From the NCBI GenBank assembly GCA_951406725.2, contig OX597816.1, positions 98,580,001-98,644,000 of the forward strand: a stretch of DNA of 64,000 nt, read 5' to 3'. Below, piece after piece: positions 2,335 to 38,799 of this stretch (the stretch's first letter is position 1; every line of letters starts with the position of its first letter). The notes under the pieces were generated by a model that was not told the DNA's origin, ran no database searches, and saw only the letters and a program-made list of their open reading frames with translations. This stretch comes from Octopus vulgaris (Eukaryota). The translations under genes and the position numbers were made by a program.

Positions 2335-2530
2335 CATGACGACCGCTCAAAATGGCCGACTTACACACATTCTTTATTTTCTCTTCTTGTTTATTTCTGT
2401 GTCCCTTTCTGTGGAATAGCGTAGGCTCGAACCGTTAAAGACCTTTTCACTTCCGGAGTGTTAAACTAATATATCTGTTTGTTGTCTAAATCACCTCTCT
2501 TCGTCTTTTTTTTTTGTGAATTCCCCACCC
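2335..2530 (+). mobile_element. Short interspersed element with a hammerhead-like motif (Penelope pseudo-LTR-like), followed by (TA)n
   Basis: Clearly homologous to 6940-7135 (tgtgtccctt..ctgt.g.a.agcgtaggctcgaa.c; ctaata.atctgtttgtt; cttcgtctttt). Contains cttt-CTGTGGA-atagc gtag gctc-GAAC-cgtt-aaag. Confidence 0.6.
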
Positions 2531-4837
2531 CATGTATATATATGTATATATATATATATATATATATGATCTAATGCTTCCGATTAATTATATAATTATA
2601 TAATTATAGATTTATTGTTAAAAAAAGCTGTTATAATGTCTTTTCGTTTTTTCTTTTACATTGGTTTACATCATCAATAGAATTCTTATCAAGAGAGGGT
2701 AAATTTGTATGTCCAAACCACGTGATGTAGTTTATATTAAATTCCGTTCGATTAAACCAAACGAGCATTGCATCTGTGCCCTAGAGAGCTCAACGTACAG
2801 TGTTTTAGCATCTTTTCATCTCGTACGGCGTTTGCAATATTTGAGAGGAATGTTTCTTTACATCCATTACCTATCTTTCGATGGGCATGCTAAGCCTTGC
2901 AATTCTGGCTCCTGATTATTGATATTATATGGAAAATTAACTTATCCTGCATACATAGCAATTTTCGATGAATGTAGAATAAAATTTAAGAAAAGTTTTA
3001 CTGCAACTAATTGCTACCTCAGGCGATTTGCGTTACTCCTAAGGGTTTAGTTGCATAGCATATGCAGAAATGGAGAGTGAGAAATGGAGCTGAAAGCGAA
3101 TTGCTGTCGATAATAATGGCATATGGGTGAGGGTGAATACATCTTGTGTACATTTTCCTTTAACCCAATATATTTAATGTTATACAAAACTACCGGCCAA
3201 AAATCTGAGACTTTTACCATATGCGTAGACTATACAGACCCTTTATGATTGTATAGTGTTGATCTGTAAAGAACTATGAGATCCAAAACATATAGTTACT
3301 CTCACCGTACAATGTAACAAATAACAGATATTACAATAAACATACTTCAAATTATGTTGAAATAATGTTAAATGTTTGAAATTCTATCTTCATTTCTTTG
3401 AGGATATCTAACAATTTCTGACAGATTGATCCCCCGAAGAATTTGTAAGATATGTGATACATGTTTTCTAGTACATGTACACACTTTTAACTCCTAATTA
3501 GCAAACGAAACGTTTGTAAGAGCGAAAAAATATTACTAAAAATTAGTGCCAAAATTACTTTTTTACAGTCTGCTGTTTTGGTATATAATTACTCTTCAGA
3601 GACTTCCAGTATTATGAACACATATGCAATACTCACAGACATATGATATCTATAAATAGATTTAAAATATTCGAATAAGCAAATGTACTTCGAGGTGTTC
3701 TAACCTAATATATATCATATACATATAAATATATATGCATATTTGTGTGTGTATAATGAAACGCCGTATCATGGTAGTTATCGAAGTACCACTGTGCGTT
3801 GTTGCTAAGCAATGTTTGCATTATCTAATCCTCATGCACAAACGAATGCATACACACATACAGACACACATACAGTGACTGCACTGTTTTGTACCAATGA
3901 TATGTATCCTGTCTCTTGGCGATGATCAGCATTTCTGTAGATCAGCTACTACAGTAATATTACTATTCTCTGGTGGAGTGTACAAAAATCTATGGATGAA
4001 TACACCGTTTGATACATTATCTTTTTTATTTTATACGTGTGTTTCTTGAATATTCGGACATTTATTGTAAATGACAAACAAGCTTCTGCAGTGATTGCTG
4101 CTTGAAAAGATTTCCAAAACAACACTACGTTAAAATATAATCTCCAGTAAACTACTACAGATTCAGTAGAAGATTCAAATGCAATGTGGATGACGTTTGT
4201 CTGTTGTGACTCTTTAATCTCCATATCACTTGAGTGACCTGAAAGTAATATGTTAATCACGACGATATTGTTATTAAAAGAATACATAGAGGACAGTTAG
4301 AATAATGGGTTGCAGCAATTTTATAGATCGACTATTAGTGGCATTTGTCTCAAGATATTTTTGATTACCAAAGTCCAATCGATTGGTTTCACAGATAAAG
4401 AACTACATCATTCGAACACGAATTTTTAAACTTTTATTCTTTGTTAGAGATTTTGAAAACAATATCAGCTTCTTTTTTTTTTTCCTACTTGTTCTAAAAT
4501 ACTTTTAATGTTTCAATATTTATTGAAAAATAAATTCAGCATAAAAGATTATTTTTCATACAGATTTTAAACGGTTCACAAAAGGTTATTAAATAGAGAA
4601 TGAGGAGTCATCTTTCTTATTATTGAAACGTACGTGTAAATTTTATTTTATTACATCAACATTACTATATCAACGAAAAACACTATGAAGCTGCAGTCTT
4701 TTAAATGAATTTATACATTTTTAAGCATATACTTGTCTACACACAAACAGACACAGGCACATCCAAAGACTTTATTTTGTACAATATTTACATTATTTAC
4801 ATTTGACGGATATTTGTCCTCGTCTTGTTTGTTGTTA

Positions 4838-4881
4838 ACACAACTTTTCGGCTGATATACCCTCCAGCCTTCGTCAGGTAT
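4838..4881 (-). ncRNA. Minimal type I hammerhead ribozyme motif
   Basis: Minus strand reads atac-CTGACGA-a-ggctg gagggtatat cagcc-GAAA-agtt-gtgt. Core, stem II and stem I are present. The stem III palindrome (ACGT in the other copy) is mutated. Confidence 0.7.
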
Positions 4882-5220
4882 CTAGGGAAAATTCGAACAT
4901 GGGTTCTCAGTCCTGAGGTATTATTATTATTATTATTATTATTATTATTATTATTATTATTATTATTATTATTATTATTATTATTATTATTATTATTATT
5001 ATTATTATTATTATTATTATTATTATTATTATTATTATTATTATTATTATTATTATTATTATTATTATTATTATCATCATTATTAATAATAATAATAATA
5101 ATAATAATAATAATAATAATAATAATAATAATAATAATAATAATAATAATAATAATAATACCAACAACAACATCGAAAAATACCTTAGGAATGGGAACCT
5201 AGGTTCGAAATTTCCCCAAC

Positions 5221-5264
5221 ACACCTGATAAAGGCTGGAAGGTATATCAGTTGAAACGTTATGT
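5221..5264 (+). ncRNA. Minimal type I hammerhead ribozyme motif, decayed
   Basis: acac-CTGATAA-a-ggctg gaaggtatat cagtt-GAAA-cgtt-atgt. One core substitution (G8>A). ACGT palindromic stem III. Confidence 0.65.
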
Positions 5265-37111: not shown

Positions 37112-37557
37112 TATCTATCTATCTATCTATCTATCTATCTATCTATCTATCTATCTATCTATCCATCTATCTATGTATATATATATATATGTATATATAT
37201 ATATATATATATATATATATATATATATATATATATATACATATATACATATATATATATACATACATACACATATATATATATATATATATATATATAT
37301 ATATATATATATACATATATATATTAAATTAGAGATAAAACCACTATTAGGCAAATCAAACATTGAAAAACATAAACCAAAACTTAGATAGATAGATAGA
37401 GAGAGAGAGAGAGAGAGAGAAAGAGAGAGAAATGGATAAATAGATAGATAAATAGGATAGACAGATAGATAGATAGATAGATAGATAGATAGATAGATAG
37501 ATAGATAGATAGATAGATAGATAGAGAGAGAGAGAGAGAGAGAGAGAGAGAGAGAGA
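37112..37557. repeat. Compound (TATC)n/(TA)n and (GA)n/(GATA)n microsatellites
   Basis: Direct observation. Confidence 0.95.
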
Positions 37558-38303
37558 TATTTAATTAAGGCGGTAGCGTGACCAAAATGTAGGAAGGTTT
37601 AAGTAATCACATACATTAGCTTATAACATTTTCCTTACTGAGTCCGGATCTCTTTTACAACATTCTGGCTTCTTTGGAGACTCCAAAATAACTCTGAAGA
37701 CGTTATAGGCTCTGTCATATTCACTCAGTTTTCATTGCGCTGCCTTTTATGACAGAAACAGCTGTAAGCTGTTGAAGGTGATTAAGTAACCTTCGTTTAT
37801 TTACCATTTATTAATTGAGTTTGCACCGCTTGCTCTCCCTCCTCTTAAGCATCAACATATACTGTTCTAACAACTAGTTATTATTATTGCTGTGCATAAG
37901 GAAAACATACTACAGGTATACATACTTATATATATATATGTATACTAACACATATCCATATATGTATACATATATGCATGCATATATACATTCATAAATG
38001 CGTTTATACCTAGATGCACATCTGAATATATTTTTGTGATTATCTATGTGGACAACTGTATAAATATAACTACATTTAAAAGTATAAGTTTTCAGAACTG
38101 AAATATATATGAAAAATGATGAAAGCATAATCATGTATTTCTACAGACAACATTAGACCGCATATTTATTTTGTTCTTTCTATGACTAATCCTTAGCAAC
38201 TATCAGCATTTCTTTTCAGCTGCTGAAGCTGAAGGAGAAATATTCTCCGATACAAGCAAAGCCACATATTCAGGTTCGAGTCCTCGACTAACAGCTATTT
38301 TTT

Positions 38304-38546
38304 TAATAATTACATTACTTTAGTTTTACCTCGTTTACCACTCACTATACTTACTAAACATAATTCAATTGTTATTGCTTAGCTCTAACTTTTATTGCTA
38401 TTGCTATTTCTAAATTTCCTAGCTATTATCTAAATAATAATTACATTACTTTAGTTATACCTCGTTTACCACTCACTATACTTACTATACTTAACTCAAT
38501 ATAGCAAGTGGTAAACGAGGAATAACTAAAGTAATGTAATTATTAT
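38304..38546. repeat. Direct duplication plus an inverted third copy of a ~40-65 bp unit
   Basis: aataattacattactttagtt.tacctcgtttaccactcactatac occurs at about 38305 and 38435. Its reverse complement agtggtaaacgagg..aactaaagtaatgtaattatt is at about 38507-38545. Confidence 0.88.
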
Positions 38547-38682
38547 AAACTTCCACAAACGATCTTGCTCTGATTTGTGCCTTGGAAGGTAACTTTCTAG
38601 ATGCAATCTCCTGGTGATTCAAGACCGAAGGAGGCCCTATATATATATATATATATATATATATATATATATATATATATAT

Positions 38683-38799
38683 ATTTATTTTATAGAAGGA
38701 GCTTCTACAGGACTAGAACTGTTTCATTCAAAAGAAATCATCAGGAGCTTTTGAATGAAACAGTTCTAGTCCTGTAGAAGCTCCTTCTATAAAATAAAT
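38683..38799. repeat. Perfect 52-bp inverted repeat with a 13-nt loop, inserted in (TA)n
   Basis: 38683-38734 is the exact reverse complement of 38748-38799. The unit continues to (TA)n at about 38868. Confidence 0.97.
38700..38749 (-). ncRNA. Type I hammerhead ribozyme motif
   Basis: Minus strand reads agctc-CTGATGA-tttc tttt gaat-GAA-ACAG ttctagtc CTGT-A-gaagct. Intact core, 4-bp stem III, GUA triplet, stem I with one bulge. Confidence 0.72.

What the first reader, a model, noticed from the sequence alone, without database searches (positions are those of the whole stretch)
2335..38799. Several sequence-unrelated hammerhead-ribozyme mini-elements, mostly foldbacks at microsatellites
Seen: hammerhead-type cores with compatible stems at 4838-4881(-), 5221-5264(+), 19138-19175(-), 29435-29491(+), 36583-36641(+) and 38700-38749(-), with variants near 2405, 7006 and 3567. 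They fall into at least six groups with no shared flanking sequence. None encodes protein. Four loci are inverted-repeat structures in or next to (TA)n/(TAA)n. Established: Penelope-like elements carry minimal type I hammerheads in their pseudo-LTRs and can leave inverted, truncated pLTRs, and retrozymes are non-autonomous hammerhead retroelements. Inference: this genome hosts a large population of non-coding ribozyme-bearing elements mobilised by PLE enzymes (a PLE RT remnant lies at 58900-59500) with a preference for AT microsatellites. I do not know whether these particular families have been described.
Basis: partly seen in the sequence, partly recalled or inferred. Interest (0 to 1): 0.8.

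Follow-up and report, generated by a model that had tools for sequence, protein, structure and literature searches.

The report
Penelope retroelement stubs carrying hammerheads
The hammerhead-like motifs and hairpin-shaped repeats are in the sequence and are most likely the short, mostly decayed ends of several Penelope-type jumping genes in an octopus-like genome, an arrangement already described in other animals; whether any of them cuts RNA is untested.

Summary
Most single copies carry core or stem defects and Rfam finds none. Family A is very abundant in public sequencing data, and its majority letters restore an intact minimal hammerhead. A model built only from hammerheads of intact Hydra-clade Penelope elements ranks F and E first in the window. 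The head-to-head arms, palindromes at the junction, a one-sided extension and (TA)n at the 3' ends are published Penelope signatures. Two Hydra-clade coding remnants lie elsewhere in the window. Best reading: 5'-truncated ends of ordinary Penelope-like elements, not a new class of mini-element; a true non-autonomous family is possible for A but not shown. In A the (TAA)n array is part of the unit, not its target. One oddity remains: both B copies have U in place of the conserved core A6. Verdict: new members of a known kind; interest low.

The parts
2365..2533 (+). B1: single arm of family B, hammerhead-like motif at 2405-2440 with U at core position 6 and A15.1>C; ends at (TA)n 98 nt after the predicted cut site
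4774..4918 (-). A-left: inverted arm, minimal hammerhead 4838-4881 (intact core and stem II, broken stem III palindrome); stops 27 nt short of the family's main 3' end
4919..5160 (.). (TAT)56 then (TAA)26: the 5' sides of the two A arms joined head to head; (TAA)n lies at this side in other family copies too
   Evidence: loose ends at 5162
5161..5357 (+). A-right: full family unit, decayed hammerhead 5221-5264; 5331-5357 is the extension absent from A-left; family 3' end at 5353-5357
6969..7133 (+). B2: second copy of family B, motif at 7006-7041 with U at position 6 and A9>G; ends at a short (TA)n 96 nt after the predicted cut site
19085..19299 (-). C long arm: minimal hammerhead with U3-A8 core at 19135-19178, palindromic stem III; flush with (TA)n at 19084
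19289..19314 (.). C junction palindrome (11-bp stem, 4-nt loop)
   Evidence: z -4.8, 0 of 200 shuffles
19315..19428 (+). C short arm, starting in hammerhead loop II, to 19390; then 8 nt of AT, about 30 other nt and the next (TA)n (tail or host DNA, undecided)
29185..29377 (-). D short arm, starting at the cleavage triplet; 9 nt from (TA)n; carries GUC and a 6-bp stem I partner
29377..29406 (.). D junction palindrome (30 nt, 93% self-complementary)
   Evidence: z -5.6, 0 of 200 shuffles
29407..29793 (+). D long arm, hammerhead 29433-29493 (C3>A), shared part to 29678, then a 115-nt extension to (TA)n
36529..36719 (+). E: Hydra-clade-type hammerhead 36583-36641 with one base missing in stem II; (TA)n 84 nt after the cut site; 17-nt inverted copy at 36529-36545
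38684..38749 (-). F long arm: Hydra-clade-type hammerhead 38700-38749 (U10.1.U11.1, GUA triplet); (TA)n 21 nt after the cut site
38748..38867 (+). F short arm starting in stem-loop II, 52/52 identical, then a 69-nt extension to (TA)n (91 nt after the cut site)
54658..54975 (-).
   Evidence: HMM E 3e-12; half core E 0.94, weak
58908..59503 (+). Decayed RT thumb region of a Hydra-clade PLE, followed by (TA)n
   Evidence: (HMM E 9e-23)

Best explanation
These units are most likely 5'-truncated, ORF-less ends (pseudo-LTR stubs) of at least six Penelope-like retroelement families, each carrying the hammerhead motif of its parent element. Inferred mechanism, taken from published PLE work: the element's RT/GIY-YIG protein nicks both strands of (TA)n or other AT-rich DNA and starts reverse transcription inside its RNA at one of two sites downstream of the hammerhead; both nicks are primed, so two cDNAs grow towards each other; they stop early, often in or beside the hammerhead stem-loops, and are joined through microhomology or snap-back, which leaves a head-to-head foldback with a small palindrome at the junction and an extra tail on one arm. 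E and F are of the Hydra-clade type (3-bp stem III, predicted to fold as monomers); A, C, D and B are of the minimal palindromic type predicted to need a dimer. The ribozyme would serve the parent RNA; most stubs here have decayed and are likely inert. Shown here: motifs, arm layout, junction palindromes, (TA)n positions, abundance and majority letters of A, motif type of E and F, Hydra-clade coding remnants. Inferred: parentage of each stub, the insertion steps, any cleavage.
For: Family A: 13,579 contigs of run X4 lay on 600 bases; summed depth 9.6e4-2.4e6 inside 5161-5360 against 2e2-6e3 in the flank and about 14 for an exact-match contig; 851 contigs leave the unit at 5353-5357 into diverse AT-rich DNA; majority letters restore G8 (5230, 90% of depth), both stem II C's (5251 93%, 5252 81%) and stem I (5261, 73%), alike in all 4 runs laid. 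That majority form fits the min-HHR consensus of PMC4209133 (supplement passage). Intact Hydra-type loci: a hammerhead on the sense strand in 42 of 77 loci (5 of 77 antisense) by one descriptor and 50 of 77 (2 of 77) by another, mostly 110-360 nt after the ORF; U.U at 10.1-11.1 in 23 of 48 distinct motifs, as in F, and already listed in File S2 of PMC8557442. A model from 45 such motifs ranks F and E first in the window. Distances from cut site to (TA)n in those loci group near 30-34 and 92-113 nt (8 and 11 of 23 that end at TA), close to F's 21 and 91 and E's 84. C, D and F have one arm within 0-9 nt of (TA)n and the other 38-115 nt from the next array; background for (TA)6 within 120 nt is 7.8% of positions. 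Head-to-head inverted pLTRs, junction palindromes and a one-sided tail are described in PMC3846280 and PMC8557442; opposite-strand min-HHR pairs 100-700 bp apart and the U3-A8 core in PMC4209133; two-strand cutting of AT-rich DNA and internal RT starts in PMC11167929.
Against: No stub was linked by DNA sequence to a PLE ORF: no Hydra-type coding remnant lies in 2335-38799, and the arms match neither the 77 loci beyond 21-31-nt pieces nor the consensi in the PMC8557442 supplement (12 short words, 0 hits). Only family A was sampled beyond the window. In A both arms begin in the same (TAA)n array and depth does not fall towards the 5' side, which also fits a fixed-length non-autonomous unit. A second family-wide end near 5330, expected if A's 27-nt extension is a true tail, is not among the loose-end rows shown (1,178 rows were cut). 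C's extension may be host DNA; D's (115 nt) and F's (69 nt) are longer than the 30-40 bp usually quoted. None of the 9 motif stretches folded better than shuffles (z -1.3 to +1.4). The first descriptor was only marginal against shuffles. Three other foldbacks (14885-15095, 32323-32518, 38434-38546) hold no motif.
Confidence: 0.72

Rival explanations
1. Some families, A above all, are true non-autonomous elements of about 200 nt with their own master copies, transcribed and copied in trans by PLE proteins (a PLE-driven SINE equivalent, or dispersed monomers of a retrozyme).
For: A has a sharp 3' end, a common 5' border at (TAA)n, flat depth along the unit and an intact majority core. pLTRs can act in cis on unrelated cargo (PMC3846280); a 2026 preprint derives retrozymes from pLTRs and reports solo monomers. 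O. vulgaris has 893 recently active 'unclassified SINE' families.
Against: No tandem array in the window; only single contigs show a head-to-tail joint (5354 to 5191 in X8). Contigs break at (TAA)n, so a longer parent would look the same. C, D, E, F have arms of unequal 5' length, as truncation predicts. No promoter or transcript start is shown.
Confidence: 0.2
2. The foldbacks are MITE-like DNA elements or products of palindrome-forming repair at (TA)n, and the hammerhead look is incidental.
For: C and F are near-perfect inverted repeats flanked by TA; three foldbacks lack any motif; a mariner with terminal inverted repeats lies at 39426-40739.
Against: One arm is extended on one side only; the motif points outwards in all five units; A's majority letters restore four separate hammerhead positions; an outside model picks E and F.
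Confidence: 0.05
3. Chance motifs in AT-rich DNA, or assembly artefacts for the perfect foldbacks.
For: Rfam negative; first descriptor marginal; F arms 52/52 identical.
Against: A and D arms differ by 15-17%, which an artefact would not give. Holds only for the 3567 motif.
Confidence: 0.03

Closest known systems
Minimal hammerheads (min-HHR) in pLTRs of metazoan Penelope-like elements (Cervera and de la Pena 2014, PMC4209133)
   Same: Type I topology, palindromic stem III, extra base between 9 and 10.1 (A, B), U3-A8 core (C), mostly solo motifs, opposite-strand pairs 100-700 bp apart.
   Different: No octopus family among the supplement passages seen; B has U6, which I did not find there; no ORF linked here.
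Hydra-clade PLEs, including Hydra-1_Obim of Octopus bimaculoides (Craig et al. 2021, PMC8557442)
   Same: RWK, DKT and CxCX5C motifs in full-length relatives of the window's remnant; (TA)n targets; 3-bp stem III hammerheads with G-C or U.U at 10.1-11.1 (E, F); inverted 5'-truncated copy (Penelope-13_HM).
   Different: E and F differ in sequence from the Hydra-1_Obim hammerhead, so they are other families; here no ORF lies between the arms.
Inverted-pLTR Penelope insertions of Adineta vaga (Arkhipova et al. 2013, PMC3846280)
   Same: Head-to-head arms, palindrome at the inverted junction, tail on one arm.
   Different: Those enclose an ORF or cargo and often have target duplications; none was evident here (not searched systematically).
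Non-LTR retrozymes (Cervera and de la Pena 2020, PMC7229834; Li et al. 2026 preprint)
   Same: Short, non-coding, type I hammerhead, probable PLE origin.
   Different: Retrozymes are head-to-tail tandem repeats of 150-450 bp that make circular RNA; these units are solo or inverted.

Membership tests
Type I hammerhead ribozyme | Core C3-U4-G5-A6-N7-G8-A9 and G12-A13-A14 (or U3-A8) | tested here: met
   Intact in A-left, C (U3-A8), E, F; one change in A-right and D; restored by majority letters in family A. Not met in B (U6) or 3567.
Type I hammerhead ribozyme | Stems I, II, III around the core | tested here: inconclusive
   Complete in C; complete for A from majority letters and for D from its two arms; defects in E and F single copies.
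Type I hammerhead ribozyme | Covariation across copies | not testable with these tools
   No genome held; one search gives letters per place without linkage. One search covers only the 45 outside motifs, which were chosen for pairing.
Type I hammerhead ribozyme | Self-cleavage after the NUH triplet | not testable with these tools
   No assay; contigs cannot show RNA ends.
Rfam hammerhead families | Score at gathering threshold | tested here: not met
   0 matches.
PLE pseudo-LTR remnant | Head-to-head inverted, 5'-truncated copy | tested here: met
   A, C, D, F; E only in part.
PLE pseudo-LTR remnant | Tail on one end only | tested here: inconclusive
   One-sided extensions of 27, about 38, 115 and 69 nt; element origin shown only for A's.
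PLE pseudo-LTR remnant | Dispersed high copy number with a defined 3' end | tested here: met
   Family A only; B has 2 copies in the window ending 96-98 nt after the cut site; C-F not sampled.
PLE pseudo-LTR remnant | Same sequence flanks an RT/GIY-YIG ORF | tested here: inconclusive
   No link found in the window, in 77 outside loci or in one supplement; the host genome could not be searched.
Hydra clade (E, F) | Clade-type hammerhead and (TA)n target | tested here: met
Hydra clade (coding remnants) | RWK, DKT, CxCX5C motifs | tested here: inconclusive
   Present in full-length relatives; the remnants cover only thumb and EN end; no tree built.
Non-LTR retrozyme | Head-to-tail tandem monomers with a hammerhead in each | tested here: not met
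   None in the window; single contigs only.
Non-LTR retrozyme | Circular RNA | not testable with these tools
   No raw RNA reads offered.

The most novel reading that the evidence does not exclude
Octopus carries PLE-driven, SINE-like non-autonomous families (A, about 197 nt behind a (TAA)n leader, thousands of copies or more) that current annotations file as unclassified SINEs or MITEs, and family B uses a natural hammerhead with U in place of the conserved A6 that still cleaves, perhaps only when bound by PLE protein.
Probability: 0.15. Interest if true: 0.55.

Novelty: new member of a known kind. Interest (0 to 1): 0.25.

Why it matters
As read here it is an annotation gain: several octopod Penelope families that the searched papers do not describe as hammerhead-bearing (the 2026 O. 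vulgaris repeat annotation has 0 mentions of hammerhead or ribozyme), and a warning that such stubs can be misfiled as MITEs or SINEs. Young stubs such as C and F record both RT start sites and the junction of one insertion in 180-340 bp, which is useful for testing models of PLE integration. If B's U6 core is family-wide and active it would extend the known natural core variants (A6C is known and slow, PMC3088659). Speculative, untested: transcribed foldbacks would supply double-stranded RNA in an animal group known (my recall) for heavy A-to-I editing.

Tried and rejected
No host genome was held, so copy numbers and consensus for B-F are open. Rfam: negative (the weak matches listed were microsatellite-driven, 82 rows not shown). 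Exact 27-nt word of A in metagenome contigs: 0. Word-index protein search with the RT remnant: 0 of 55 candidates; the full HMMER scan then found 149. Pfam: no informative family in 119 short frames around the units (1 weak coiled-coil match), but the same library also missed 10 of 10 clear PLE relatives, so this is weak. PDB: nothing for P0032. No RNA holder listed for 5161-6000; run X3 is only guessed to be RNA and its profile follows the DNA runs, so it says nothing on expression. Summed contig depth was not used as a copy number (overlapping contigs inflate it); the dip at 5241-5260 is probably an alignment effect of this copy's clustered changes, not tested. Runs of organisms A, C and E gave near-identical profiles and are not counted as independent. 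Rejected: 3567 as a hammerhead; the strict-core matches at 54972-55018 and 39259-39300 (no stems I/III); hammerheads in foldbacks 14885-15095, 32323-32518 and 38293-38546; the idea that D's short arm starts exactly at a self-cleaved RNA end (it carries 2-3 nt upstream of the cut site). The R4/Dong-like reading of 35900-36530 rests on recalled motifs; a search found nothing. Not-in-print searches: Octopus + hammerhead ribozyme + Penelope gave 1 paper; A6U and CUGU-type cores gave nothing relevant in the listings (listings only). Lunse et al. 2017 (about PLE hammerhead variants) was not held and may cover U6; file 1 of the PMC4209133 supplement and the preprint's supplements were not seen. Earlier scan notes for this genome or look-alike stretches: none.
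Full report
Setting. The window is AT-rich (28-44% GC by 2-kb bin) and full of microsatellites. The closest proteins to its PLE remnant are from Octopus sinensis (60% identity, E 5e-18) and O. bimaculoides, so the host is probably an octopod. 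No genome was held.

Observation. Masked self-BLAST and pairwise alignments define unrelated units: A (arms 4774-4918 and 5161-5357, 128/155 identical, around (TAT)56(TAA)26), B (direct copies at 2365 and 6969, 142/185), C (19085-19390, arms 83/84), D (29185-29678, 175/206), E (36529-36719, a 16/17 inverted piece only) and F (38684-38798, 52/52). They do not match each other. C has the U3-A8 core with all stems. Rfam finds none.

Chance. A first descriptor gave 4 matches at score >=15 against 1.6 in shuffles (63 of 793 reached it) and passed 2 of the 6. A second one, tuned after seeing the loci, ranked C, E, A-left and D first to fourth in the window (3 at >=24 against 0.16; 1 of 376); per locus A 1/300, C 0/300, D 3/300, E 0/300, F 16/300 (its stem III loop exceeded my cap), and no hit in B1, B2 or three other foldbacks except a score of 12 in one (31/300). 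Free energies were not unusual. The stronger tests came from outside data.

Family A in public runs. I laid 4 of the 24 listed runs on 5161-5760 at 80% likeness. In X4, 13,579 contigs lay on it; summed depth was 9.6e4-2.4e6 in the unit, 2e2-6e3 in the flank (itself an older repeat) and about 14 for an exact contig. Summed depth is not a copy number; the firm floor is 851 contigs that leave the unit at 5353, 5355 or 5357 into unlike AT-rich DNA (862 in X8, 690 in X14). Majority letters differ from this copy at 5230 (A>G, 267,309 of 296,364), 5251 and 5252 (T>C, 49,298 and 42,772 of 52,819) and 5261 (A>G, 85,749 of 118,116): exactly G8, stem II and stem I. 121 further rows were cut. The result fits the min-HHR consensus in the supplement of PMC4209133. 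On the 5' side the loose letters at 5162 are (TAA)n in the three runs that list them, so the array belongs to the unit and the target is ordinary AT-rich DNA, as for the anole element that cuts at ATT (PMC11167929).

PLE enzymes. The 58905-59237 frame found 149 relatives. [quoted passage not shown] A profile of 24 relatives finds two remnants in the window, 58914-59503(+) and 54658-54975(-), and none in 2335-38799.

Positive control. I fetched 77 loci of this clade from metagenome contigs (best 80 of 481 confirmed). A hammerhead lies on the sense strand in 42 of 77 (antisense 5 of 77) or 50 of 77 (2 of 77), mostly 110-360 nt after the ORF. Of 48 distinct motifs 23 have U.U and 14 G-C at 10.1-11.1, and 37 a GUA triplet. 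U.U is already in File S2 of PMC8557442, in PMC3088659 and PMC7229834, so F's closing pair is not new. Of 23 motifs followed by (TA)n within 250 nt, 8 lie 30-34 nt and 11 lie 92-113 nt from it; F's two arms give 21 and 91, E 84.

Layout. In A, C, D, E and F the motif points outwards, so the arms are head to head. In C, D and F one arm is 0-9 nt from (TA)n and the other 38, 115 and 69 nt from the next array; 7.8% of random positions have (TA)6 within 120 nt. Short arms start in stem-loop II (C, F) or at the triplet (D). C and D have a perfect small palindrome at the junction. All of this is published for PLEs: inverted 5'-truncated copy and one-sided tail (PMC8557442), head-to-head arms with junction palindromes (PMC3846280), solo and opposite-strand min-HHRs (PMC4209133), internal RT starts that explain the tail (PMC11167929).

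Interpretation. The best reading (0.72) is truncated ends of several PLE families, E and F of Hydra type and A, C, D, B of the minimal palindromic type. The insertion steps are inferred from the cited work. What is not shown is a DNA link between any stub and an ORF. A real non-autonomous family remains possible (0.2), chiefly for A, but the units fail the tandem criterion of retrozymes.

The open oddity. B1 and B2 share a U-rich leader, a 4-bp stem II and the palindromic stem III of a min-HHR and end at (TA)n 96-98 nt after the predicted cut site, yet both have U at position 6. Two copies about 23% apart sharing it suggests it is ancestral, but each has a further core change and the family was not sampled. 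A6C is known and slow; I found no U6 case in two searches (listings only), and the most relevant paper was not held.

What I saw of each paper: PMC4209133 parts 1-2 of 4 and supplement passages; PMC8557442 passages, section 11, supplement parts 2, 52, 53 and word searches; PMC11167929 parts 1-2 of 4; preprint 10.64898/2026.07.22.740005 part 1 of 5 and passages; PMC13282606 part 1 of 3 and passages; PMC3846280, PMC3088659, PMC6765202, PMC7229834 passages. Hammerhead numbering and the family names of LINE and R4-like remnants are recalled.

Verdict. Real, abundant and well spotted, but a known kind: new octopod members of hammerhead-bearing PLE pseudo-LTR stubs. Interest 0.25.

Noticed in passing
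window 54132-54975 (-): Second Hydra-clade PLE remnant (endonuclease end), with a lone hammerhead 5' half core about 520 nt downstream, broken off at TA-rich sequence.
   Followed up: partly
   Followed up: partly
window 38293-38546: Partial tandem (71/80) plus inverted copy (44/47), a PLE-like layout without a hammerhead, 90 nt from the (TA)n beside F.
   Followed up: partly
window 14885-15095 and 32323-32518: Two older foldbacks (58/72 and 45/57) with no passing motif.
   Followed up: partly
window 7370-10850 (+): Near full-length, frameshifted LINE (CCCH zinc finger, APE endonuclease, RT) starting just after B2; a related LINE 3' end at 19554-20360 starts about 100 nt after C.
   Followed up: partly
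window 35621-36530 (+): (AAT)50(AAG)46 array followed by a decayed frame that recalls R4/Dong-type retroelements; it abuts unit E. A search found no relative.
   Followed up: partly
window 39426-40739: Mariner-type transposon with 52-bp terminal inverted repeats and a broken transposase.
   Followed up: partly
window 2345-2358: A 14-nt stretch just upstream of B1 is identical to loop II and the 3' strand of stem II of unit C (seen by eye); unexplained, may be chance.
   Followed up: no
window 5361-5760: The flank of A is itself a lower-copy repeat (summed depth 2e2-6e3 in X4).
   Followed up: no
P0001, P0002: The closest Octopus proteins are PLE fragments annotated as 'myb-like protein I' and 'GATA zinc finger domain-containing protein 4-like': likely misnamed.
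   Followed up: no
L017, L024, L076: Two different Hydra-type elements sit in opposite orientation next to each other, each with its own hammerhead.
   Followed up: no
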